NCBI GenBank assembly: GCA_964016885.1
Contig: OZ024740.1
Location: 178,746,001 to 178,810,000 of the forward strand
Length of the DNA: 64,000 nt
Origin: Eledone cirrhosa
Taxonomy: Eukaryota
Direction of reading: 5' to 3'
How positions within the stretch are numbered: position 1 is the first letter of the stretch; every line of letters begins with the position of its first letter. Below are positions 4,771 through 64,000 of the stretch, one piece after another. The position numbers were made by a program, and so were the translations under genes. Under the pieces are notes generated by a model. The model searched no databases. It was given only the letters and a program-made list of their open reading frames with translations, and was not told the origin of the DNA.

Positions 4771-5313
4771 TAGAAGTAGTAAAACAACAGTTAGTTCACC
4801 ATACCGAGAACAATTGTTTCACCTTAGCGGACCTTCAACTCGTACTGGTCATGGTTATACGGAACAGGAAGAACAACCGTATGAACGCGCATGCGCAGAA
4901 ACGGTCACTTCACCCAAGCGATACAATGCCACAGGCAAAAAGTGTAAGGGAGATAACTGCAAAAGTCCGGAAAAGATGTTCGAGTTCATAAGAAAATTAG
5001 AATGTTGTATCCAATCCGGAGCTTTGTAGTTATGCAAGAGCTGTTTCCAGACATGTGGACAACGTGAGAAGATTTCCTACTTGAATTGAATCAATCCTAT
5101 TGCGTAACCTCCTTAGAATATTTATCCTTTCTTCAATACACAGTCTACAAGACGGATTGCCGCTAGCGTATGGCTTGGACCTAGTGATGGCTTTCCCTTG
5201 AATGGAGTAGTCGATACCTGAGTCTTTGAGGGACTATGCGTGGCTCGCGAGTTTCGTGGATGAACGTTTGTTCGACATGAACCGACCTTTAGGTCCACTT
5301 AAAGTGCTACTGC

Positions 5314-11256: not shown

Positions 11257-11417
11257 TATATATATATAAATGGAAAAAATGAAACGAAATTTCATTTCCA
11301 ACTCTTAGTGCGCCTGGCCGATTAACTCAGTCGATATGCAAATTAGGCTGCTCAGGCGTTAATATGCATAAGGAAAGTATATACTTTCAGACGTTCAATC
11401 ATCTGGCAGGAAGGTAT

Positions 11418-11460
11418 ACGGTGCTGACGATAGCTAAAAAGCTTGAAACTAGTACATTGT
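11418..11460 (+). ncRNA. Minimal type-I hammerhead ribozyme
   Basis: acggtg-CTGACGA-tAGCT aaaa AGCTt-GAAA-CTAG-TA-cattgt. Same family at 46364-46406(-) and 46895-46937(+). Confidence 0.8.
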
Positions 11461-11667
11461 TCCTTTGTCAGTGTTGAACAAAAGGGCAACGATGGTTGGT
11501 AAACACAGTACGGCTTAATTCAGGATGTTTGTTTACAAACAAACCGAGCATTATAATAAATGTTCGGTAAATCCATACCTACATATATATATGTGTGCAT
11601 GTATGTATATATATATATACATACTACTGTACGTCTGTATACATATATGTATGTACGTATACATACT

Positions 11668-13587: not shown

Positions 13588-13654
13588 ATGTGTGTATATA
13601 TATATATATAATATTAAAATATAAATATTAATAAAATACATGTTCTTTTGATCA

Positions 13655-13717
13655 ATTACATTTTATTATACATATTTCGGATGTACAACAGTACGTCCTC
13701 ATCAGACAAAATATAAT
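13655..13717 (-). ncRNA. Minimal type-I hammerhead ribozyme (left arm of fold-back)
   Basis: Reverse complement of 14248-14310. Confidence 0.8.
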
Positions 13718-14247
13718 GATGCATGACATACCATGAGATGTTAAATGGTTAAGATTTAATCAAGGTAGTGATTAACCCGAGAGAAAATTTTACTTATATA
13801 GCCTAAGAAAATGAGAAAATGCGAAAACGTAATAAATTCATTAGAGAATGTGTGAGTAAGAAAACACGTTGCTTACTGTAACTGTTCTAAAAGTTTTTAA
13901 AATGTATGATACTACGATATATCTAGGAAAACGTCTCATAAATAATGAAAGCCAGTGATAGCCACTGGAAACGGATTTATAAAGAGGGAAAGATAATGGG
14001 TGGCTATCACTGGCTGTTATGATTCATGACACGTTTTCCTAGATATATCGTAGTATCATACATTTTAAAAACTTTTAGAACAGTTACAGTAAGCAACGTG
14101 TTTTCTTACTCACACATTCTCTAATGAACTTATTACGTTTTCGCATTTTCTCATTTTCTTAGGCTATATAAGTAAAATTTTCTCTCGGGTTAATCACTAC
14201 CTTGATTAAATCTTAACCATTTAACATCTCATGGTATGTCATGCATC

Positions 14248-14310
14248 ATTATATTTTGTCTGATGAGGACGTACTGTTGTACATCCGAAATATGTATAAT
14301 AAAATGTAAT
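14248..14310 (+). ncRNA. Minimal type-I hammerhead ribozyme
   Basis: attatattttgt-CTGATGA-GGAcGTAC tgtt GTACaTCC-GAAA-TATGTA-TA-ataaaatgtaat (12-bp stem I). Confidence 0.85.
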
Positions 14311-14444
14311 TGATCAAAAGAACATCTATTTTATTAATATTAATATTTTAATATTAATAACTCCGGAAAATTATTTTTCGTAGAGTGCTTTCCATCTACT
14401 GTAAAACTCATTCTTTGACATAATAATTGAATATCGTTTAACAC

Positions 14445-15251: not shown

Positions 15252-15540
15252 TAATAAATAGAAACTATATTTATAAAACCATATTTATTCTATTATATAT
15301 ATTTCAAGAGTACCAACAGTTTGGTACGCTCTCCTCAGATAAAATACAAAGTTTGTTTTATTAATATTGACATCCAGGAAGGAGATCTTAACGGTTATCC
15401 AGGAAAAAATTGAACCGTTAAGATCTCCTTCCTGGATATTTGTATTTTATCTGATGAGAGCGTACCAAAGTTTTGGTACCCTTGAAATATATATAATAGA
15501 ATAAATATGGTTTTATAAATATAGTTTCCATTTATTAATA
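15252..15540. repeat. Fold-back pLTR element with nested inner palindrome (15372-15437)
   Basis: Arms are reverse complementary, with a hammerhead in each. Confidence 0.8.
15443..15503 (+). ncRNA. Minimal type-I hammerhead ribozyme
   Basis: tattttat-CTGATGA-gagcGTACCAAA..TTTGGTACcctt-GAAA-TATATA-TA-atagaata. Inverted copy at 15286-15346. Confidence 0.8.
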
Positions 15541-17011: not shown

Positions 17012-17511
17012 ATATATATATATAACAAATAGTAGCAAGGAAAAAGTCATTTTCTGTAGAAAATGTTGAAGAGATAATGTTTCAGGTGCGGATATGCAGA
17101 ATATTATGGTATGTTTATGTACATTTTTCTTCTAACTTTGATTGTTTACCTAATTTTGTATGGTTGGCTATATGTCTAATCGATTTCTACGGGCTATTAG
17201 AAATACTAGGTAAATCTTCTGTGGGTGTTGATCGCAGATAAAATAGGTATCATTTATTTATCTATTGTATCTTCATAGGTGCATTTTAAACTTACAGCTC
17301 GTTTAATTGATTTTTTGTGTGGTTAATTATGCTGATTGGGAGAGGAAATACTGTATACATTTTATCAAATGATTCTATGGACTTACTTTTTTATATATTG
17401 CTCTGATTGTTGATTATTTAATTAATTAGTTCGTCATTGAGCCACACCGTGAATGGTTGCCAAACACACATATATATATCTATGGCTCTGTCTAATTTAT
17501 GTATATGTAAA

Positions 17512-23215: not shown

Positions 23216-23401
23216 TAAATTTAACACTCAATGGTAGGATCATAACCGTATAAAGAACTCAATGTAATCCGTATGTAGAAGATTTCGTGAAGCAAAGTTT
23301 AAAATACAAAGATTTTATCAACGATATAATTCAATTGGATACAGAGTCAAAATAGAAATATTAAAACAATGAAATTAAACACAAACATTTTAATTCATAG
23401 T

Positions 23402-23551
23402 AAAACTCATTATTTTACGATCGTTTCTGGGGGGTAGTTCCCTGTATGTTCATTCAATTATTGATCTATGTAAAACATATTACAAAATATCATAGTAAGA
23501 AAAAGATACATACGTCTTCACTACCCGCCGTCTTCAGAAATAATGAGTTTT
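23402..23551 (-). ncRNA. Split hammerhead (about 100-nt stem/loop II), left arm
   Basis: Reverse-complement copy of 25758-25906 with GGcGGGTAGT/ACTACCCcCC stem II. Confidence 0.75.
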
Positions 23552-24839
23552 GTTTATTGAAGAATACAAAAAAACATACATATGAATAAGTAAAGTTTTA
23601 TAACCAGGTTGAAATTGACCAATGTTAAGAATGGAAAGGGGCAGTATAAATCCTTAAGGTTGGTGGTAGTAGATGAATAAATAGGCCATCAGTGGATAAT
23701 GTATCAGATGTCTTTTAAGAAAAGAAATGAGAGTTGTTAGTGTAAATGAAATTAGGCATATTGTATATAAAGGTGTTGATGGTCAAAGAAGATTACGGTT
23801 GGAGGAAAAGGGGTACTGAGATTAGTGTGTTACATCAAGTAGAATGTAATAGAACAATCTTAAAATGTTAGTTATTTCTTTGTTGGGAGGAATAATTTGT
23901 TCTAAAAATATTTAATATAAAAAATATATACACGTATACTCACACATGTTTATATATAGGCATACATTTATGCATATACATATACACACACAGATATACA
24001 TATTCACACACACACCTATACTCACACATTTATTCACCTATATCTTTTTCTATATTTGTTTAGTTGTATTTATAATATATGAATGTCCTTCTAATTTTAT
24101 GGTTACATACTAAAATTAATTCTTGTCTTTTATTTAATAGAGTGTCCTTCGATTTATTAATTTGAACATTTCTTGAGAACATAGTCCGCACTCCTTTCTA
24201 TTGCTCCCCTGATAAGAAATTGCTCTCTTAAGAATCTTCCAAGTTTGGTTATATTTAATATTATTCTTTTTACAATTATTAACTGCTTCTGCTAAAGAAG
24301 TGGTATTTGCTAATTTTGTGTTTCGGAAACTGTGGGTGTGTGCATAAAATCTCGATTTAAATGGATTAGAAGTAGATCCTATACAGGATTGATTAGAGTC
24401 TTTAATACAGTAAAATTTTCTTACTCCACATAGAGCAATATACAACAAAAAATAAATGCATATAACATCTATAAATGTAAAAAAGCTCCATCTATACCAC
24501 ACACAAGATAACTATGGTAATACTACAACGCATAACCTGAATATTACTGCATACCCACCTGATAGATCCGCTCACTCACTTCACCAGCACAATATAGCAG
24601 ATTACAACCAACTACCATCTTCCTCTTCCTTAATAGGGACTAAGATTTATATACCCAATCTAACTAATAGCATCCAAAACAACCATGATTCTATAAACGC
24701 TATATCAAGTATAATTTCACCTACTAGCAACAATTCGGATTACAACCACCATACCGTAAACCCTTCTCTCCCAAATAAAAAGATAAACACAAATACTAGC
24801 ACTATTATTGAGAATATGGATAGCACATCTGAAACGCTA

Positions 24840-25245
24840 AATGCAAACGGTTGTAATTGTAGAATAAAAGATAATTGCCCGTTAAATGGAAATTGCTTAA
24901 TTAATAATATAGTATATATATATGTAATCACCACTAAAGACTCTAATCAATCATTTTTAGGATCCATTTCTAATCCATTTAAATCGAGATTTTATGCACA
25001 CACCCACAGTTTCCGAAACACAAAATTAGCAAATACCACTTCTTTAGCAGAAGCAGTTAATAATTGTAAAAAGAAGAATATTAAATATAACCAAACTTGG
25101 AAGATTCTTAAGAGAGCAATTTCTTATCAGGGGAGCAATAGAAGGGAGTGTAATTTTTGAAAGTAATTTTTGAAATTACTAAATCGAAGGACACTCTTTT
25201 AAATAAAAGACAAGAATTAATTTTAGTATGTAACCATAAAATTAG
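24840..25245 (+). pseudogene. GIY-YIG endonuclease domain of Naiad/Chlamys-clade PLE (degenerate)
   Basis: CNC-x4-CPLNGNC linker, FKxRFYxHxxSFR, WKILKRA, LNKRxE..C.HK C-terminus. Inverted partial copy at 24100-24404. Confidence 0.85.
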
Positions 25246-25757
25246 AAGGACATTCAAATATTATAAATACAACTAAACAAATATAGAAAAAGATATAGGT
25301 GAATAAATGTGTGAGTATAGGTGTGTGTGTGAATATGTATATCTGTGTGTGTATATGTATGTATATGCATGTATACGTGTATATATTTTTTATATTATAT
25401 ATTTTTAGAACAAATTATTCCTCCCAACAAAGAAATAACTAACATTTTAAGATTGTTCTATTATATTCTACTTGATGTAACACACTAATCTCAGCACCCC
25501 TTTTCCTCCAACCGTAATCTTCTTTGACCATCAACACTTTTATATACAATATGCCTAATTTCATTTACACTAACAACTCTCATTTTTTTCTTAAAAGACA
25601 TCTGATACATTATCCACTGATGGCCTATTTATTCATCTACTACCACCAACCTTAAGGATTTATACTGCCCCTTTCCATTCTTAACATTGGTCAATTTCAA
25701 CCTGGTTATAAAACTTTACTTATTCATATGTATGTTTTTTTGTATTCTTCAATAAAC

Positions 25758-25906
25758 AAAACTCATTATTTCTGAAGACGGCGGGTAGTGAAGACGTATG
25801 TATCTTTTTCTTACTATGATATTTTGTAATATGTTTTACATAGATCAATAATTGAATGAACATAAAGGGAAATACCCCCAGAAACGATCGTAAAATAATG
25901 AGTTTT
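25758..25906 (+). ncRNA. Split hammerhead (about 100-nt stem/loop II)
   Basis: aaaactcattattt-CTGAAGA(25772)-...102 nt...-GAAA(25881)-CGATCG-TA-aaataatgagtttt (14-bp stem I). Confidence 0.75.
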
Positions 25907-25961
25907 ACTATGAATTAACAGTTTTGTGTTTAATTTCATTGTTTTAATATTTATATATATA

Positions 25962-29024: not shown

Positions 29025-29475
29025 AGAGAAAAGGTGAAGTTGGAAATAGCACGGAAAATATATTTTAGGGTCTGTTTTTCTTTTTGTTTCCTTTCTATGA
29101 TTCGTCAAAGTGACATCATTGAACATATGAGAGGGAAAATTCTTTAAAAGAAAATTTTATAATATATATAAAGTATTACCGGTTTCGATGTATTATTAAA
29201 ATTCATCTTATCAAATGTTGAGTATTAACATATTTTTAATTGTAATACTCAACATTTGAATTTTAATAATACATCGAAACAGGTAATACTTTATATATAT
29301 TGTAAAACTTTTTTAAAAAGAATTGTCCCTCTCATATTTTCAATAATATCAATTTGATGAATCAAAGAAAAAAGAAAAGAAAAACAAACCCTAAAATATA
29401 TTTTCCGTGTTATTTCCAACTTCACCTTTTCTCTATAACCAGTCTTTTGTATATAACCTTACTTCCCTTTTCTTA
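29025..29475. repeat. Imperfect fold-back (~200-bp arms, 29025-29434) plus tail
   Basis: agagaaaaggtgaagttggaaata...tatttccaacttcaccttttctct. Degenerate TTGATAA..GAAACCGGTA on minus. Confidence 0.8.
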
Positions 29476-29854
29476 TATATATATATTTATATATAAAGTT
29501 ATAGATATATATATGTTGCAACTGGTCACTTTTAAGCTCTATGAAGAATTAATAAATTAAAAAATCAGAGCAATATATCATAAATCATGTCTTTAGAATC
29601 ATCAGATAAAATATATACCAATTCTTCTTCTAATTAGCATAATTAACAATATAAAAAATTAATTAGATCAAGCTATAAGAAGAAAGGCTCTTATGGAGAA
29701 ATCTCCGACAAATAACCGAACGTAGCCTCTTCGCGGTGGCCCCGATCGAGTATTTATCCAACATTTCGACAGCATGTAGAAACTGACTAAATATATCATC
29801 AACCATACACAATTAGGTGTAAAATTAAACATAGAAAAAATGCGTACCTACCGT

Positions 29855-29941
29855 AATTATATCTCTACCATGGTTTCATCCCTATTTTTAGACATCCAAA
29901 TAATAGGAATGTCCTGAGTTAGGATTCATCAGGAGACAAAT
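29855..29941 (-). ncRNA. Hammerhead with extended stem II, left arm
   Basis: Reverse complement of 30961-31047. Confidence 0.78.
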
Positions 29942-30121
29942 TCAAAATCAGACATCTAGTTTTTCAATCCAATCCCGCCAAAAATAGATTCAAAAGTGGC
30001 TAAGAATCGCTATGTGGCTGTGGTCAAGCCAGAAAGAATGTGATTGGTTGCTTACGGCGGGTATTTGGCTGCGCTTTCTAGCAGCAAGCCTACCCGCCGT
30101 AAGCAACCAATCACATTCTTT

Positions 30122-30214
<93 letters not shown>

Positions 30215-30960
30215 CGCATATACACACACATACTTCATATTTTATATCAGCATTTGAGTTGATACCTGACACTTCATGACCTTTTTACAAATGTCATGTT
30301 TAGATATAGGGAAATAAGATAAACATTTCACAACACAAACAAACGAACGAAAAACTGAAATATTGCCTTAATTTTTGTGATAAGATTTTTATATTTAATT
30401 TACTTTATTTACAACGTAATGTGCTTTCTTCATGTCAATATTGAAACTTTATTTCAAATCATTTTAATTCAAAAAATGTATATAGATATAATTTTGTTAT
30501 ATTTTCTTTTGAAAGTCAAATATTTTAGTAATCTCTTTCATATAGAGAAATGTTTTCTACACGAATAAGAACGGGAAATGTAGTAAATAACATATATATT
30601 CGTTTGTTTGCTGATCTATTGACAACAAACCGAAAAGTGTATTCCCTCCTTCGTCGTTGGACTACGTAAAAGGTGATATAAATATGTACAGCATGCAGAA
30701 ACAAAGCTTGTGTGTACTGCTGTAAATATATGCCAGGTGTCTGAAAAGAAAATCATCGACAGTGTAAATATTTAATAATCTCCCGATAGGTTGAGATTAA
30801 ATTTGGCGATATTTGGCTGCGCTTTCTAGCAGCAAGCCTACCCGCCGTAAGCAACCAATCACATTCTTTCTGGCTTGACCACAGCCACATAGCGATTCTT
30901 AGCCATTTTTGAATCTATTTTTGGCGGGATCGGATTGAAAAACTAGATGTCTGATTTTGA

Positions 30961-31047
30961 ATTTGTCTCCTGATGAATCCTAACTCAGGACATTCCTATT
31001 ATTTGGATGTCTAAAAATAGGGATGAAACCATGGTAGAGATATAATT
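30961..31047 (+). ncRNA. Hammerhead with extended (48-nt) stem II
   Basis: tgtctc-CTGATGA-ATCCT..ggacattc..ggatgtct..GGGAT-GAAA-CCATGG-TA-gagata. Confidence 0.8.
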
Positions 31048-31396
31048 ACGGTAGGTACGCATTTTTTCTAAGTTTAATTTTACACCTAATTGTGTATGGT
31101 TGATGATATATTTAGTCAGTTTCTACATGCTGTCGAAATGTTGGATAAATACTCGATCGGGGCCACCGCGAAGAGGCTACGTTCGGTTATTTGTCGAAGA
31201 TTTCTCCATAAGAGCCTTTCTTCTTATAGCTTGATCTAATTGATTTTTTATATTGTTAATTATGCTAATTAGAAGAAGAATTGGTATATATTTTATCTGA
31301 TGATTCTAAAGACATGATTTATGATATATTTATATATATAAATTATTTCCGTAGAAAAGGTAAAGGAAAGAAGAGTGCTTTATGTATAGTACAGAG

Positions 31397-37941: not shown

Positions 37942-38074
37942 GCAGAAGTTATATTTAATTTGTTGGGATTCCAACAAACTTAAATGTTTATAACTAATAT
38001 AGAGCACTCAACAGTTTACTGGAGTAAATATTCAATATATTAATAAATGGAAACTATATTTATAAAACCATAAT

Positions 38075-38140
38075 TATTTTATTATATATATTTCAAGGGC
38101 GATCAAGACAATATTGGTGCGCTTTCATCAGATAAAATAT
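38075..38140 (-). ncRNA. Minimal hammerhead, same family as 15443-15503
   Basis: On minus: tattttat-CTGATGA-aagcgc..gccctt-GAAA-TATATA-TA-ataaaata. Confidence 0.7.
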
Positions 38141-38278
38141 AAAATTTGTTTTATATATATATATTTCTTCCGAATGAAGCAGTTTTAGTCCTGTAGAAGC
38201 CATTTCTATATTAAATATTCATACTCTGCTATGTATTGAGTAACTTACTTACTGTGGTTACCCCCGATTGAACCCGGG

Positions 38279-44228: not shown

Positions 44229-45219
44229 AGATTTAGTAGTACGTAATTATAATGTTCGTATATTTACTTATTGATATGCATACTAAAACTTAAGGGCACA
44301 ATGGTGAAGCTATATGCACCAAAGTAACTTCAAAGTGAGTTGAAAATATCCGAAGTTGTCTCTTATAAATATCGAATAAAAAATATTGTTGGTCATTAAA
44401 AACATAGAAATAAATACGGCATTATCTATTCGTAGACTTTAGAGAGATTCTTAAATTGAGTTTCATGAAAATTTGGAAGGTTCTGTTAGAATGTAAAATC
44501 GTTGATTTCATTTGAAAATTGTTTCAGTTCAGCCAGAGAAACGGCTTGAATGAGTTAACCCATGATGAAAAGTATTCTATCCGTGAATATCCCGTTTTTA
44601 TTTACATGTATTTAACCCCTGATAATATATCTACTCTTACACTGTCGAAGATTTTCTTTTCAGACACCTGGCATATATTTACAGCAGTACACACAGGCTT
44701 TGTTTCTGCATGCTGTACATATTTATATCACCGTTTACGTAGTCCCACGACGAAGGAGGGAATACACTTTTCGGTTTGTTGTCAATAGATCAGCAAACAA
44801 ACGAATATATATGTTATTTGCTACATGTCCCGTTCTTATTCGTGTAGAAAACATTTCTCTATATGAAAGAGATTAGTAAAATATTTGACTTACAAAAGAA
44901 AATATAACAAAATTATATCTATATACATTTTTTGAATTAAAATGATTTGAAATAAAGTTTCAATATTGACATGAAGAAAGCACATTACGTTGTAAATAAA
45001 GTAAATTAAATATAAAAATCTTATCACAAAAATTAAGGCAATATTTCAGTTTTTCGTTCGTTTGTTTGTGTTGTGAAATGTTTATCTTATTTCCCTATAT
45101 CTAAACATGACATTTGTAAAAAGGTCATGAAGTGTCAGGTATCAACTCAAATGCTGATATAAAATATGAAGTATGTGTGTGTATATGCGTATATATATAT
45201 ATATATACACACACACACA

Positions 45220-45304
<85 letters not shown>

Positions 45305-45990: not shown

Positions 45991-46363
45991 TATATATATA
46001 TAAATGAAAAGTATAGAAATTATTGTGAGCAAGAAGCCAACAGTATTTCATAATATATAAGTGACTATAGCGTCAAAATGGAATATATATATATATATAT
46101 ATGGAAAAAATGAAACGAAATTTCCTTTCCCACTCTTAGTGCAGCTGTTACTTAAATATACGTATGTATACGTACATATATATATGTATACAGACGTAAA
46201 GTAGTATGTATATATATACATACATGCACACATATATATGTGTACGTATCGATTTACCGAGCATTTATTATAATGCTCGGTTTGTTTGTAAACAAACATC
46301 CCGAATTGAGCCGTACAGTGTTTAGCAACCATCGTGGCCCTTTTGTTCAATACTGAAAAAGGA

Positions 46364-46406
46364 ACGATGTACTAGTTTCAAGCTTATTAGCTATCGTCAG
46401 CACCGT
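46364..46406 (-). ncRNA. Minimal hammerhead (11418 family)
   Basis: On minus: acggtg-CTGACGA-tagctaataagctt-GAAA-CTAG-TA-catcgt. Confidence 0.8.
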
Positions 46407-46894
46407 ATACCTTCCTGCAAGATGATTCAACGTCTGAAAGTATATACTTCCTTATGCATATTAACGGCTGAGCAGCCTATTTTGCATATCGAGTGAGTTA
46501 ATCGGTCGGGCGCACTGAAAACGATAAATGGAAAAAATGAAACGAAATTTTATTTCTCACTCTTAGTACGGCTGTTACTTAAATATAAGTATATATACGT
46601 ACATACATATATGTATACAGACGTACAGTAGTATGTATATATATACATACATGCACACCTATATATATGTACGTATGCTGACGATAGCTAATAAGCTTGA
46701 ATGGTACACATACTTATATTTAAGTAACAGCCGTACTAAGAAGAAAAATGAAATTTCGTTTCATTTTCTCCATTTATCATTTTCGGTGCGCCCGGCCGAT
46801 TAACTCACTCGATATGCAAATTAGGCTGCTCAGCCGTTAATATGCATAAGGAAAGTATATACTTTCAGACGTTCAATCATCTGGCAGGAAGTAT

Positions 46895-46937
46895 ACGGTG
46901 CTGACGATAACTAATAAGCTTGAAACTAGTACATCGT
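46895..46937 (+). ncRNA. Minimal hammerhead (11418 family)
   Basis: acggtg-CTGACGA-taactaataagctt-GAAA-CTAG-TA-catcgt. Confidence 0.75.
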
Positions 46938-47261
46938 TTCTTTGTCAGTGTTGAACAAAAGGGTAACTATAGTTGCGAAACACTCTACGGCTTAATTCGG
47001 GAAGTTTGTTTGCAAACAAACCGAGCATTATAATAAATGCTCGGTAAATCCATACGTACATATATATATATGTGTGCTTGTATGTATATATATACATACT
47101 AATGTACGTCTGTATACATATATATATGTACGTATACATACTTATATATATATATATACTTGAGGTCGACCGGCAAAGGTAGAAGATGCTGGATGGCGTT
47201 CGTCCTCCGGTCTTTGGTTTTCAGCCCCATAGATTTTATCTATTGCATTCACTTATTATAT

Positions 47262-47429: not shown

Positions 47430-47825
47430 GATCAAAACAAGTATCCTAGTTTTACTTTGTGTCGGTTAAAGATGGAGCGGTATTTATGACCTATGGGAAA
47501 GTGTCTATCTAAGAGGGCTAGAAATTTTTCGACTACATTGGTTTTAACCTTGAGTGAGAAGGGATGAGAGAACCAGATAGTTTTGTCTATTGTAACGCTT
47601 TCTTTTCTTATTGCTGTTGTTGTTAGTGGGAGAGTAAGTGATAGGTTGCGAGAAGCCGCTGTTAGCTAATATAGCCTTATTAGAGGGGAGGTTTTAGATT
47701 CTAGTACTGATATTATTTACGAAGTTTCTAAAAGCAGTGGGAGTGTGGCATGAGTCCTTGTGAATGTAATGAGTTTTTCGTTTAGCTTATGGAAGGGTCT
47801 GTCGATGTCTGTGCGAAGGTCTAAA
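47430..47825 (-). pseudogene. Naiad-type PLE RT thumb/linker fragment
   Basis: Translates across frameshifts as LDLRTDIDRPFHKLNE..YIHKDSCHTP..WFSHPFSLKVKTNVVEKFLALLDRHFPIGHKYRSIFNRHKVKLGY. Confidence 0.8.
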
Positions 47826-47852
47826 TTAATGTACTAACTGTTGTGTAACCAC

Positions 47853-52479: not shown

Positions 52480-52900
52480 TTTAATTATACTCCTAACTAG
52501 GTTTTCTGTGATTTTCTTTTGTTTTAGGTGGGGTGTGTGTGTTAACGTCTATATATCTAAGGGATTCGTTAGGTTTGTGGTATTGGTAGTAAAGGAAAGT
52601 TTCTAATGTAACGTCTATAACGTTGGCCCAAGTAATGTTAGATTTAATCGTATTTCTAAAGCCTAGATTGCGGAAGAAAAAATATAAGTTCTTCCGAAAC
52701 CCATTGCTGAATTGGAGGGGACACCTTGTGCATGGCGAAGAGGCCCACGTCGCAGTACAGTGCAGCGGTTATTCCGTTAAGAATCTTCACTTTTTGTAGG
52801 ATGTACAGGCCGACCAGGTCGCTTATTTCTCCGGAGTAGTTCGCTCCCATGCTATCACTGAATGGGGTATATCCATTTGCAGAAAGCTGGTGTTTTCTTT
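52480..52900 (-). pseudogene. Naiad-type PLE RT core fragment (degenerate)
   Basis: FSDSMGANYSGEISDLVGLYIL..ALYCDVGL resembles FDVTMGSYDGAExCELVGLYIL..GLYRDDGL. Followed by IDVTL..YHKPNESLRYIDVNTHTPP. Confidence 0.75.
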
Positions 52901-53054
52901 CCCCGGCAGTTCCTGGAACCAAGAAATTACCTCCGAAGTTCTACTTCAGAGTGGGTGTGGTGCAGCTGTACGCAGTGATGGAGTTATTTGGACGAGGGTG
53001 TGTGGGCGTTCGGGTGTTTGTGTGCGTGGTGTAGAAAGTATGTATGTACGTATG

Positions 53055-54230
53055 TTATCTCTTTCTCTTAATTTCGAGTATATTTTTTTTGACCGGCCAC
53101 CTTCCTGGTGGCAAGGTTGTAAAAGAAAAGAAATTGTCATCCCTTGAATCGCAAGAATGTTTTGCAAATTTTGAAGGTGCCAGCTATCGCAGCCATTTGT
53201 AGACTATGAATTAGGGAGCTGCGCTTTTTGTCCGCAAATCCAAGTTCAGTCATACTTTGGTCCAAGCGGGTTGGTATATAACCCGTAGCTCCAATAATGA
53301 TGGGTATGAAGCTAAAGGTGTATCTTGGATAGTGGATTTGTAAACTCCTCATCAACGTAGATGTCCTCCTTCTCCTGTATTTTTCTGACAACGTTTACAT
53401 CAAGTGGGCAGCTGATCTCCACAACAGAATACGTTTTCAATGTGTGGTCCCAAACAACAATATCAGGCCGGTTGTGCTTTAATTTGGTGGCAGTTTTTAT
53501 TTTCAGGTTCCACCAGTATTCCTTAGTGCCATCTGTCTCAATATATTCTTCCTCGTTTGTTGTTAATTTTGTTTTCCGAAGTGCGTTCCAGATGGTTCTA
53601 GCTATCCCATCGTGTCTCATGGGGAGGTAGTAGCGAGATGACATTATTTCGCAGCTGGCAACAATGTGGCTTACATCCTCGATCTTTGTTTTACATAGCC
53701 TACATTTATTGTCAGCTGCTGGCCCTCCTCTTTTGTGCAGCAGATATTTGGTAGGGAGTTCTTGTTCCTGTATTGCATAGAGATATCCCTCAAGGTATGA
53801 TGTCATAAACTTGTCGGAACTCCATGCCAGGCTTTTTGAGTGGTTTATCCTCTCCATGTTCTGTGTTTTACGTCTCAAGTATCCATGCACAACTTTTTCT
53901 ATAAATTGGTCAATTTTTTTTATCTTGTTTGAACATTGAATAGGATCTTCCGATTTCTCTGGGTGAGAGATTTATATCAGGCTTTATTCCATATCTCTCC
54001 TCCAGATCAGTCGCTATTCTAATGATATTTTTTTTTCATGCTCATAAACCTGGGCTAGATGGTTGCCAACCTTTTTCCTGTTAAAGGTGTTGCTTCAGTG
54101 TTACTATCCGGGTCTCATATGTTTTTAATATTGATTTTAAACCCCGGCCACCTTCCTTGCGTGAGAAGTATAGCCTATCCACATCACCATTGATGTTAAA
54201 GTTCCCAGTAACACTGAGAAGTTTGCGAGT
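53055..54230 (-). mobile_element. 5'-truncated R4/Dong-like copy 1
   Basis: Near-identical to 62035-63215. Flanked by (TATG)n. Small frameshifting deletion near 53356. Confidence 0.92.
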
Positions 54231-54237
54231 ATGCATG

Positions 54238-54271
<34 letters not shown>

Positions 54272-54273
54272 TG

Positions 54274-55027
54274 TTTTCTCTTTCTCTTAATTTCGAGTAT
54301 ATTTTTTTGACCGGCCACCTTCCTGGTGGCAAGGTTGTAAAAGAAAAGAAATTGTCATCCCTTGAATCGCAAGAATGTTTTGCAAATTTTGAAGGTGCCA
54401 GCTATCGCAGCCATTTGTAGACTATGAATTAGGGAGCTGCGCTTTTTGTCCGCAAATCCAAGTTCAGTCATACTTTAGTCCAAGCGGATTGGTATATAAC
54501 CCGTAGCTCCAATAATGATGGGTATGAAGCTAAAGGTGTATCTTGGATACTGGATTTGTAAACTCCTCATCAATGGTCCGTAGATGTCCTCCTTCTCCTG
54601 TATTTTTCTGACAACGTTTACATCAAGTGGGCAGCTGATCTCCACAACAAAACACGTTTTCAATGTGTGGTCCCAAACTACAATATCAGGCCGGTTGTGC
54701 TTTAATTTGGTGGCAGTTTTTATTTTCAGGTTCCACCAGTATTCCTTAGTGCCATCTGTCTCAATATATTCTTCCTCGTTTGTTGTTAATTTTGTTTTCC
54801 GAAGTGCGTTCCAGATGGTTCTAGCTATCCCATCGTGCCTCATGGGGAGGTAGTAGCGAGATGACATTATTTCGCAGCTGGCAACAATGTGGCTTACATC
54901 CTCGATCTTTGTTTTACATAGCCTACATTTATTGTCAGCTGCTGACCCTCCTCTTTTGTGCAGCAAATATTTGGTAGGGAGTTCTTGTTCCTGTATTGCA
55001 TAGAGATATCCCTCAAGGTGTGATGTC

Positions 55028-55029
<2 letters not shown>
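54274..55029 (-). mobile_element. 5'-truncated R4/Dong-like copy 2
   Basis: Same 3' end, CCHC and RLE coding region. Flanked by (TATG)n. Confidence 0.92.
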
Positions 55030-55058
<29 letters not shown>

Positions 55059-55112
55059 TGTATGTATGTATGTATGTATGTATGCATGTATGTATGTATG
55101 TATGTATGTATG

Positions 55113-55602
55113 TTTTCTCTTTCTCTTAATTTCGAGTATATTTTTTTGACCGGCCACCTTCCTGGTGGCAAGGTTGTAAAAGAAAAGAAATTGTCATCCC
55201 TTGAATCGCAAGAATGTTTTGCATATTTTGAAGGTGCCAGCTATCGCAGCCATTTGTAGACTATGAATTAGGGAGCTGCGCTTTTTGTCCGCAAATCCAA
55301 GTTCGGTCATACTTTGGTCCAAGCGGGTTGGTATATAACCCGTAGCACCAATAATGATGGGTATGAAGCTAAAGGTGTATCTTGGATACTGGATTTGTAA
55401 GCTCCTCATCAATGGTCCGTAGATGTCCTCCTTCTCCTGTATTTTTCTGACAACGTTTACATCAAGTGGGCAGCTGATCTCCACAACAGAACACGTTTTC
55501 AATGTGTGGTCCCAAACTACAATATCAGGCCGGTTGTGCTTTAATTTGGTGGCAGTTTTTATTTTCAGGTTCCACCAGTATTCCTTAGTGCCATCTGTCT
55601 CA

Positions 55603-55606
<4 letters not shown>
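55113..55606 (-). mobile_element. 5'-truncated R4/Dong-like copy 3
   Basis: Same 3' end and RLE coding region. Flanked by (TATG)n. Confidence 0.92.
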
Positions 55607-62034: not shown

Positions 62035-64000
62035 TTTTCTCTTTCTCTTAATTTCGAGTATATTTTTTTGACCGGCCACCTTCCTGGTGGCAAGGTTGTA
62101 AAAGAAAAGAAATTGTCATCCCTTGAATCGCAAGAATGTTTTGCATATTTTGAAGGTGCCAGCTATCGCAGCCATTTGTAGACTATGAATTAGGGAGCTG
62201 CGCTTTTTGTCCGCAAATCCAAATTCGGTCATACTTTGGTCCAAGCGGGTTGGTATATAACCCGTAGCACCAATAATGATGGGTATGAAGCTAAAGGTGT
62301 ATCTTGGATACTGGATTTGTAAGCTCCTCATCAATGGTCCGTAGATGTCCTCCTTCTCCTGTATTTTTCTGACAACGTTTACATCAAGTGGGCAGCTGAT
62401 CTCCACAACAGAACACGTTTTCAATGTGTGGTCCCAAACTACAATATCAGGCCGGTTGTGCTTTAATTTGGTGGCAGTTTTTATTTTCAGGTTCCACCAG
62501 TATTCCTTAGTGCCATCTGTCTCAATATATTCTTCCTCGTTTGTTGTTAATTTTGTTTTCCGAAGTGCGTTCCAGATAGTTCTAGCTATCCCATCGTGTC
62601 TCATGGGGAGGTAGTAGCGAGATGACATTCTTTCGCAGCTGGCAACAATGTGACTTACATCCTCGATCTTTGTTTTACATAGCCTACATTTATTGTCAGC
62701 TGCTGGCCCTCCTCTTTTGTGCAGCAGATATTTGGTAGGGAGTTCTTGTTCCTGTATTGCATAGAGATATCCCTCAAGGTGTGATGTCATAAACTTGTCG
62801 GAACTCCATGCCAGGCTTTTTGAGTGGTTTATCCCCTCTATGGTCTGTGTTTTACGCCTCAAGTATCCATGCACAACTTTCTCTGTAAATTGGTCAATTT
62901 TTTTTCTTGTTTGAACATTGAATAAGATCTTCCGATTTCTCTGGGTGAGAGATTTATATCAGGCTTTATTCCATATCTCTCCTACAGATCAGTCGCTATT
63001 CTAATGATATTTCTTTTTTCATGCTCATAAACCTGAGCAAGATGGTCGCCAACCTTTTTCCTCTGTTGAAGGTGTTGCTTCAGTGTTACTATCCGGGTCT
63101 CATATGTTGTTAATATTGATTTTAGACCCCGGCCACCTTCCTTGCGTGAGAAGTATAGCCTATCCACATCACCATTGATGTTAAAGTTCCCAGTAACACT
63201 GAGAAGTTTACGAGTTCTAACATCCATCTCACTTAGTTCTTGCAATGACCAGTTCAGTAGGCCAAATGTTGGCTTTATAATTGGCACAGCATAGGTATTG
63301 TGGGCAATGTATTTGTTATATGCTGACAGTTCTGATGACCATATTTTTTTTACTCTTCTGAGGTATTCAGTTCTGGTTCTCTCCTTATTTATGGGTCCAT
63401 CATATCTGACATTCTCATCCTGTCCAAGATATCTGTAGTTGTCACCTGACTGCAGAGGTTGTATTGTCAGGCCGTTCATATCTAGATTTCTAGAGGAGGG
63501 CACAGCTCTTCCACGTTTTACTGCCAAATATGCACACTTGGACTCACCAAATTTCATTTTGATGTCGGTTGAAAATTGTGTAATGAGGTCCAATTGTTTC
63601 TTGATGTCATTGATATTTGGCCCATACAACTTCAGGTCATCAACAAAGAAAAGATGGGAGATACTTCTGGGCCCACTTCTTTGTCCACCTTGTTTCCTGA
63701 GTAGGTAAGATAGTGGATTCAGTGAGAGAACGAAGAGTAGTACTGACAAGCTATCACCCTGAAAGATGCCCTTCTGGTAATGTATCCTATCAGTCTTAAC
63801 CTGCTCCTTCTCACCTCTAAGGATCAAATTGGTGTACCAGTTCTTGGTCAGGCGTTCAACAGCAGCTATTAATGGTTGTGGGACTTTAGCTAACTGTAAA
63901 GCCTTAATAATCCACCCATGAGGTACACTATCAAATGCTTTTTGATAGTCCAGCCACACGACAGTCATGTTTCTGCGATTCTTTGTTGTTTTTTCCTGAA
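62035..64000 (-). mobile_element. R4/Dong-like non-LTR retrotransposon (RT + CCHC + restriction-like endonuclease), runs off window end
   Basis: WLDYQKAFDSVPH, GIFQGDSLS, HLFFVDDLKLY, YRYLG, RLYFSRKEGGRGL, CRLC-x8-H-x4-C, RHD, RPDIVV..VEISCP. 3' end fuses with (CATA)n. Confidence 0.92.
62116..63968 (-). pseudogene. R4/Dong-like ORF interrupted by TAG at 62982-62984 and a 1-nt frameshift near 62900
   Basis: Track ORFs 62982-63968 and 62116-62874 are one gene. The copy at ~54000 has GAG instead of TAG and an in-frame A-run. Confidence 0.88.

What the first reader, a model, noticed from the sequence alone, without database searches (positions are those of the whole stretch)
30123..30767. PLE fold-back has captured ~640 bp of local DNA from 14 kb away
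Seen: the spacer of the 29572-31330 palindrome, starting in a (TG)n/(TA)n tract, is a near-identical reverse complement of 44637-45290, which otherwise looks like ordinary unique sequence. The left junction also has a short direct copy (30063-30122 = 30811-30871) forming a nested hairpin. Inference: several template switches during integration, including onto a nearby chromosomal segment or the same pre-mRNA via microsatellite microhomology. It also creates a 14-kb-range inverted repeat able to form dsRNA or promote inversion.
Basis: partly seen in the sequence, partly recalled or inferred. Interest (0 to 1): 0.75.

Follow-up and report, generated by a model that had tools for sequence, protein, structure and literature searches.

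The report
Ribozyme retroposon traps nearby host DNA
A 644-base piece of single-copy DNA is duplicated, back to front, inside a head-to-head insertion of a common ribozyme-bearing repeat 14 kb away; it was likely copied in while the two half-made ends of the insertion were being joined, a rare but ordinary accident with no sign of function.

Summary
The duplication is real. 30125-30767 is the reverse complement of 44637-45279 (633 of 643 bases), has exactly two genomic matches, and is supported by reads of three other individuals. The flanking arms are not a coding PLE. They are a non-coding 658-bp tandem repeat with a type I hammerhead motif (a non-LTR retrozyme), likely moved by Penelope-like enzymes. 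They are not a fold-back either: the left arm runs 84 bp further than reported, and each arm holds unit positions the other lacks. In 36 of 44 two-armed family copies one arm ends near unit position 657 and the other near 83-105. Most likely both target strands primed cDNA, and one cDNA end switched template twice, to the other cDNA and then to chromosomal DNA 14 kb away, through 0-4 bases of microhomology. Only 1 of 43 other two-armed copies holds captured local DNA, taken from its own flank. No host gene or exon was found to support a pre-mRNA template. Host-DNA capture between PLE repeats and L1 templated insertions are published; the traced, distant donor is what differs. The scan had already noted twin priming and a mirrored flank on other DNA of this genome.

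The parts
29030..29480 (.). Older palindromic high-copy repeat (PLE-like end, family not identified); its (TA)n tail is the insertion target
   Evidence: Palindrome 29030-29429; 2121 candidates; 29 other copies end at the same point and run into TA-rich tracts
29473..29483 (+). 11-base TA-rich direct repeat also at 31330-31340; possible target-site duplication, too low in complexity to be diagnostic
   Evidence: Sequence
29488..30063 (-). Left arm: retrozyme unit positions 84 to 1 (the 'tail', 29488-29571), then 658 to 167; 3' end points outward
   Evidence: shares 6 letters found in at most 7% of other copies with the right arm
29859..29938 (-). Type I hammerhead motif in the left arm
   Evidence: Motif scan; span mirrored from the right-arm copy
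30062..30123 (+). Short switch piece, unit positions 138-199, identical to 30810-30871; 2-base overlap with the left arm
30124..30767 (-). Captured host DNA, 644 bp: (TG)35(TA)10 plus about 550 bp of two-copy sequence, reverse complement of the donor
30768..31330 (+). Right arm: retrozyme unit positions 96-658; no overlap with the captured DNA at its 5' junction; 3' end in TA-rich DNA
30964..31043 (+). Type I hammerhead motif: 6-bp stem I, CUGAUGA, long stem II, GAAA, short palindromic helix III, GUA cleavage triplet
   Evidence: Rfam gave no hammerhead match; the free fold differs from the hammerhead fold
44637..45291 (+). Donor segment, non-coding, with no retrozyme beside it; ends in (TA)9(CA)6GA(CA)35

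Best explanation
A non-coding hammerhead repeat sits head-to-head in a TA tract with 644 bases of nearby single-copy DNA between its arms, and that DNA was likely copied in from 14 kb away while two separately primed cDNA ends were being joined. Shown: the anatomy, the two-copy status, the family-wide rule of one end near unit position 657 and the other near 83-105, and that neither arm can be a simple copy of the other. Inferred: a Penelope-type RT/GIY-YIG enzyme nicked both strands of the (TA)n target and primed one cDNA at each of two fixed sites of the retrozyme RNA. The left cDNA stopped at position 167, annealed through 2 bases to the right cDNA and copied 62 bases. It then slipped through 2-4 bases onto the donor's CA tract, copied about 600 bases, and was joined without overlap to the right cDNA end at position 96. 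The same path run from the other strand fits equally well. Whether the element's RT or a host repair polymerase did the copying is not resolved. The product is likely inert.
For: Two copies only. The spacer copy is bounded by element sequence on both sides and the donor on neither. Of 44 two-strand insertions among 80 sampled, 36 have one end at 650-658 and one at 83-105, none has two of the same kind, and 8 are other; 18 of 24 in the pattern-sampled set; three rows were corrected by eye. In 16 of 31 the tail-less arm is longer than the body of the tailed arm. L013 and L132 join this repeat head-to-head to the 3' part of a coding PLE, so two RNAs can supply the two arms. Short inverted element pieces at the junction recur (L019, L042, L098). 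L141 has the same layout with 180 bp of its own flank, 100% identical locally over a 169-bp query versus at most 93% elsewhere. Arm-arm (5/492) and copy-donor (8/571) divergence are alike. A PLE protein cleaves and extends both target strands and has two start sites in vitro (PMC11167929, parts 1-2 read).
Against: No empty allele or outgroup was seen, so that the two flanks were once adjacent is not shown; the 11-base direct repeat is TA-only. Capture is rare: 1 of 43 other two-armed copies. The enrichment test for local duplicates at 5' junctions was not significant (3 of 37 against a 3.0% background, P = 0.10), and two of those three proved to be dispersed repeats. For many sampled copies only 1.5 kb of flank was held. 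No autonomous PLE sharing this repeat as its pLTR was found. Timing at integration cannot be told from later repair at the palindrome centre.
Confidence: 0.62

Rival explanations
1. Later repair: a two-armed insertion formed first; its palindromic centre then broke and was patched by host templated insertion of the 62-base piece and the donor segment, with no role for the retro-enzyme in the capture.
For: Gives the same final structure. Fold-back and distant templated insertions occur at ordinary breaks in yeast (PMC11724301, abstract only). In 884 kb there are 13 other two-copy pairs not tied to inverted arms, though some are probably low-copy repeats.
Against: Divergence of arms and of copy versus donor is similar, and the short piece is 62/62 identical. 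Small inverted junction pieces are common in this family, which points to switching during integration.
Confidence: 0.16
2. The RT jumped onto a nascent RNA that spans both sites and reverse-transcribed about 600 bases of it.
For: Either strand's RNA fits one of the two possible synthesis paths. PLEs copy unspliced host sequence in trans (PMC3846280, passages). Complex L1 insertions hold pieces of several RNAs (PMC11702581, passages).
Against: No host-gene domain in 77 + 145 ORFs scanned across 284 kb, only RT and transposase-like hits and one sub-threshold Chs7 hit; short exons would be missed. The exon-like stretch in the donor has no credible homologue. None of the 8 differences is an A-to-G or T-to-C change in the copy relative to the donor's + strand. 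L141's capture starts at the nick site itself, which DNA explains more simply.
Confidence: 0.12
3. A 13-kb inversion with staggered or replicated breaks duplicated the segment at both breakpoints, with retrozyme arms inserted at two different nicks.
For: Inverted duplicates flanking a segment are what such inversions leave (recalled, not from a call). Retro-mediated inversions occur with L1 (10.1101/2024.08.27.596794, passages). Flank contiguity could not be proved.
Against: Needs three new junctions and a duplicated end. The two outer ends follow the single-insertion 84/657 rule. Joining the flanks gives the TA tract in which other copies of the older neighbour end.
Confidence: 0.07
4. Mis-assembly, or a dispersed repeat seen twice by chance.
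For: The DNA search can miss diverged copies. No listed X1 contig piece bridged the junction.
Against: Two matches only. Paralog-type letters at about 50% in each of three other individuals, and junction-crossing read geometry.
Confidence: 0.02

Closest known systems
Host DNA captured between Penelope pLTRs in Adineta vaga (Arkhipova et al. 2013, PMC3846280; abstract and passages seen)
   Same: Unrelated host sequence between two direct repeat pieces with an inverted copy 5' of them and a one-sided tail; non-coding captures between solo pLTRs are mentioned.
   Different: There the unit is read as mobilised in trans from a pLTR-framed transcript, with a clear TSD, and the passages seen name no local donor. 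Here the donor is traced 14 kb away in cis, has no element beside it, and the carrier is a non-coding retrozyme. The composite has not spread (2 copies).
L1 'templated insertions' and twin priming with switching (10.1101/2024.08.27.596794; passages)
   Same: Two primed ends, an extra inverted element piece at the junction, and a duplicated genomic segment inside the insertion (22 cases reported).
   Different: Those templates are typically under 250 bp and within 15 bp of the site, like L141 here. This one is 644 bp, 14 kb away, germ-line, and from a PLE-type element with two fixed priming sites and no poly(A).
Animal non-LTR retrozymes (PMC7229834, passages; 10.64898/2026.07.22.740005, part 1 of 5)
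   Same: Non-coding tandem unit, type I hammerhead per unit, low G+C, proposed PLE derivation.
   Different: The unit is 658 bp against about 300; the term 'inverted' does not occur in PMC7229834's main text; no capture is described in what was read.
Canonical EN+ PLE insertion unit (PMC8557442, passages; PMC11167929, parts 1-2)
   Same: Partial tandems, adjacent inverted 5'-truncated copy, tail at one end, (TA)n targets, hammerhead.
   Different: No ORF; the tail is 84-102 bases rather than 30-40.

Membership tests
Non-LTR retrozyme | Tandem repeat unit, dimers to multimers | tested here: met
   658-bp unit in arrays, for example C1:92.99-93.02 Mb
Non-LTR retrozyme | Type I hammerhead motif in the units | tested here: met
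   Motif in both arms; core intact in 74 of 82 units that cover it; Rfam did not detect it
Non-LTR retrozyme | Non-coding, G+C under 45% | tested here: met
   Longest stop-free stretch 51 codons, G+C 33%
Non-LTR retrozyme | Self-cleavage of the RNA | not testable with these tools
   Needs run-off transcription
Non-LTR retrozyme | Expressed as monomeric circular RNA | not tested
Autonomous Penelope-like element | ORF with RT and GIY-YIG endonuclease | tested here: not met
   No ORF in the unit; no significant match of the unit to two genomic PLE proteins
PLE-type insertion architecture | Inverted 5'-truncated copy with a tail at one end only | tested here: met
   36 of 44 two-strand insertions, none with two equal ends
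PLE-type insertion architecture | (TA)n target | tested here: met
   Outer ends in TA tracts
PLE-type insertion architecture | Target-site duplication | tested here: inconclusive
   11-base TA-only direct repeat
PLE-type insertion architecture | Identified autonomous partner sharing the 3' end | tested here: inconclusive
   No shared pLTR found; two head-to-head fusions with coding PLE ends
Templated insertion at a retro-integration site (L1 type) | Genomic segment duplicated inside the insertion | tested here: met
Templated insertion at a retro-integration site (L1 type) | Typical template under 250 bp and within 15 bp of the site | tested here: not met
   644 bp, 13.9 kb away; typical values
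pLTR-framed transduction (Adineta type) | Source locus where the host DNA is already framed by the repeat | tested here: not met
   No repeat match beside 44637-45291; only 2 genomic copies

The most novel reading that the evidence does not exclude
This is the birth stage of Penelope-mediated host-DNA capture. The element's own enzyme, not host repair, reaches a second (TA)n/(CA)n tract kilobases away in cis, nicks or invades it, and copies host DNA between its two cDNAs. That creates in one step the repeat-framed cargo that PLEs are known to mobilise in trans. With about 100 palindromic loci per Mb in the sampled region and capture in roughly 1 of 50-100, such events would be a steady source of short local duplications whose donor distances map the three-dimensional reach of the integration complex.
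Probability: 0.2. Interest if true: 0.6.

Novelty: new variant of a known kind. Interest (0 to 1): 0.33.

Why it matters
How PLE inverted insertions form, and how host DNA first gets between PLE repeats, is described as unresolved in the papers read. This locus gives a donor-recipient pair with base-exact junctions, showing that capture can occur without read-through from a repeat-framed source. It is one event with no sign of function, so its value is as a test case and as a template for a genome-wide count, not as a new system. The 14-kb inverted repeat is unremarkable in a region with about 106 palindromic loci in 884 kb (rough count) and 49% of bases matching repeats in my sample.

Tried and rejected
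Unmasked self-BLAST was swamped by microsatellites; redone masked. Rfam returned only microsatellite-driven microRNA-type matches below gathering score. The repeat homologue downstream of a PLE ORF in L074 is nested in that element's TA tail, not its pLTR, since three other copies of that PLE shown lack it. The 70%-identical sister family (17126-17442) is also a tandem repeat; PLE protein matches occurred in only 3 of its 30 loci, away from the unit. Apparent captures in L140 and L116 are dispersed repeats; L146 is a duplication breakpoint. The junction-enrichment test was not significant. The left flank could not prove flank contiguity because that older family ends at the target. The idea that the donor holds a coding exon (acceptor-like site at 44663, weak Chs7 hit E 1.5e-4) failed: no homologue, no paralogue, sub-threshold Pfam, and three hits summed over repetitive proteins; the Atlas look-up gave no answer. 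Arm-arm divergence was lower than to the nearest other copy in only 7 of 23 insertions, so that test is uninformative family-wide, though here it is 1.0% versus 2.5%. The other window duplicates at 53-55.6 and 62-63.2 kb are LINE pieces. Paper searches: (5 of 6 terms) found none; one search found PMC3846280 and PMC11167929 as the only PLE papers; some searches gave the other papers cited. No description of a traced, kilobase-distant donor in a PLE insertion was found in these searches; subscription journals and supplements were not seen.

Full report
Observation. The spacer 30125-30767 is the ungapped reverse complement of 44637-45279 at 633 of 643 bases, with 8 differences in the 571 bases outside the TG/CA tract. 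A search of the 3.0-Gb own genome with 44640-45180 returned 2 matches from 2 candidates, both in this window; a six-frame search gave the same two. The short piece 30062-30123 equals 30810-30871 at 62 of 62, and the arms match at 487 of 492.

Is it real in the population? The run search found three contig sets from one sample, possibly the assembly's source, and three ddRAD runs of other individuals from one other study. Laid on 30560-30900, the spacer-type letter was 24/44, 20/39 and 20/35 at 30577 and at 30584; 14/25, 11/21 and 11/20 at 30658; 20/25, 11/21 and 13/20 at 30671; and 0/21, 0/14 and 0/10 at 30708. About one half in every individual is what two homozygous loci give. Molecules begin at the SphI site 30692 (21, 12 and 10), and loose ends of median 33-40 letters occur at the AATT site 30803 in 13, 14 and 9 reads. 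That fits 150-base reads crossing the junction at 30767|30768, but it is my inference from tables, and RAD reads may be PCR copies. The spacer-type letters at 44876 and 44892 were absent from the one individual tested (0 of 25), so part of the 1.4% difference is private to the assembled copy. Reads with the spacer letter at 30671 and donor letters further in occur (6 of 25 in X4), without the reciprocal class; this suggests polymorphism or conversion at the donor, not an inversion allele, over an interval of only about 95 bp. Against: no listed contig piece of X1 bridged the junction (124 pieces not shown).

What the arms are. 30768-31330 belongs to a family with 3922 candidate places, best copies 96-98% identical, often in tandem. 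The period is 658 bp, G+C 33%, with no stop-free stretch over 51 codons. Each unit carries a type I hammerhead motif with a palindromic helix III (fold drawn), and the core is intact in 74 of 82 units covering it. Rfam does not detect it and the unconstrained fold is different. By the definitions in PMC7229834 (passages) and 10.64898/2026.07.22.740005 (part 1) this is a non-LTR retrozyme; cleavage and circular RNA were not tested. Coding PLEs are abundant in the genome (32,784 candidates for a window fragment; ORFs, recognised as PLE by recalled motifs, since Pfam gave no family). None was found with this repeat as its pLTR, but L013 and L132 join it head-to-head to the 3' part of a coding PLE.

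Anatomy. From left: an older repeat ending in (TA)n; left arm 29488-30063 (unit 84 to 1, then 658 to 167); unit 138-199 in sense; the 644-bp capture; right arm, unit 96-658; TA-rich flank. The left arm has 84 bases the right lacks, and the right has 96-166 that the left lacks, so neither is a fold-back copy of the other. Both share six letters present in at most 7% of other copies, so they come from one template lineage or were homogenised later. Among 80 distinct insertions, 44 have both strands: 36 have one outer end at 650-658 and the other at 83-105, none has two of a kind, and 8 are other (three rows corrected by eye); in the pattern-sampled set on contig C1 it is 18 of 24. In 16 of 31 the tail-less arm is longer than the body of the tailed arm, while several others are near-perfect hairpins that could be true fold-backs. 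This matches the inverted copy and one-sided tail of PLEs (PMC8557442, passages) and the two start sites and two-strand extension shown in vitro (PMC11167929, parts 1-2).

Junctions. Left arm to short piece: 2 shared bases. Short piece to microsatellite: 2 bases if the switch was into the pure tract, 4 if at the donor's interruption, with one extra dinucleotide either way; the copy has (TG)35(TA)10 where the donor has (TG)35TC(TG)6(TA)9. Capture to right arm: none. An 11-base TA-only direct repeat at 29473-29483 and 31330-31340 is compatible with a target-site duplication but is not diagnostic.

How common is capture? Of the 43 other two-strand insertions, one (L141) has foreign DNA over 30 bp between its arms: an inverted 180-bp copy of its own flank starting at the target (TA)n, 100% identical locally versus at most 93% to other members of that repeat. 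Two further candidates were dispersed repeats, and the enrichment test before their removal was not significant (3 of 37, P = 0.10). In 884 contiguous kb there are 14 pairs that are two-copy within my sample; only this one lies between inverted arms, among roughly 106 palindromic loci.

RNA or DNA template? No host-gene domain was found among 77 window ORFs and 145 further ORFs (120 of the 230 filtered ones from the flanks, 25 from the window) across 284 kb; short exons would escape. An exon-like stretch in the donor had no credible homologue. None of the eight differences has the A-to-G pattern in the copy. A DNA template is therefore preferred, not proved.

Mechanism. Most likely (0.62) both strands of the TA target primed cDNA at the two fixed sites. 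One end then switched to the other cDNA and to the donor 14 kb away before the ends were joined; the polymerase is unknown. Rivals: later repair of the palindrome centre (0.16), RT jump to a nascent RNA (0.12), inversion with duplicated breakpoints (0.07), artefact (0.02).

Comparison and verdict. Host DNA between two direct pLTRs and one inverted pLTR is reported for Adineta Penelope elements (PMC3846280, passages). Templated insertions and twin priming with switching are reported for L1, usually under 250 bp and within 15 bp (10.1101/2024.08.27.596794, passages; PMC11702581, passages). What differs here is a traced, repeat-free donor 14 kb away, a 644-bp length, a retrozyme carrier and presence in all four individuals examined. 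The searches found no such PLE case; supplements and subscription journals were not seen. Earlier scan notes on this genome already describe twin priming, retrozyme-PLE fusions and a mirrored flank; none was listed near this locus. Those notes call the genome octopus-like, which I did not check. The feature is real, rare and mechanistically useful, but it is a single and probably inert event: interest 0.33.

Noticed in passing
L141:3751-4335 (G000 C1 about 357.80 Mb): Second two-armed copy of the same retrozyme with a 180-bp inverted copy of its own flank between the arms, starting at the target (TA)n.
   Followed up: yes
L013:1501-3240 and L132:4451-5600: Retrozyme arm joined head-to-head, within about 15 bases, to the 3' coding part of a PLE; candidate mobilising families.
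   Followed up: partly
L039, L116, L138, L140 (5' junctions): The repeat's 5' end abuts other high-copy repeats without a TA tract; possibly insertions whose two arms come from different retrozyme or PLE RNAs.
   Followed up: partly
window 13640-14325, 15252-15537, 38033-38160: Other palindromic or single elements with type I hammerhead motifs on one or both strands.
   Followed up: no
window 23362-25946: Head-to-head pair of coding PLE 3' ends, arms 92% identical.
   Followed up: partly
window 17126-17442: Sister tandem family about 70% identical to the 658-bp unit, 3412 candidates, with the same two-armed layout.
   Followed up: partly
window 47432-47830 (-), 5014-5272 (-), 52526-52996 (-): Decayed PLE ORF fragments.
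   Followed up: partly
window 53058-55603 and 62036-63998: Four 97-99% identical 3' pieces of one LINE family, each ending in (TATG)n; three are stacked in tandem.
   Followed up: partly
window 46191-47112 with 11269-11582: A 920-bp palindrome whose arms match a single-arm copy 35 kb away at 93%; family not identified.
   Followed up: no
G000 C1 92.985-93.016 Mb and C4 175.57-175.64 Mb: Long tandem arrays (tens of units) of the 658-bp retrozyme, the C1 array beginning with a strand switch.
   Followed up: no
L122-L124 and L146/L147: The same retrozyme insertion with identical flanks recurs 120-230 kb apart: segmental duplications, one inverted.
   Followed up: no
flanking region, 161590-191398 in window-extended coordinates: Two inverted two-copy pairs (699 bp and 253 bp cores, 92-96%) 21-28 kb apart, not bounded by element arms; perhaps an older inverted duplication.
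   Followed up: no
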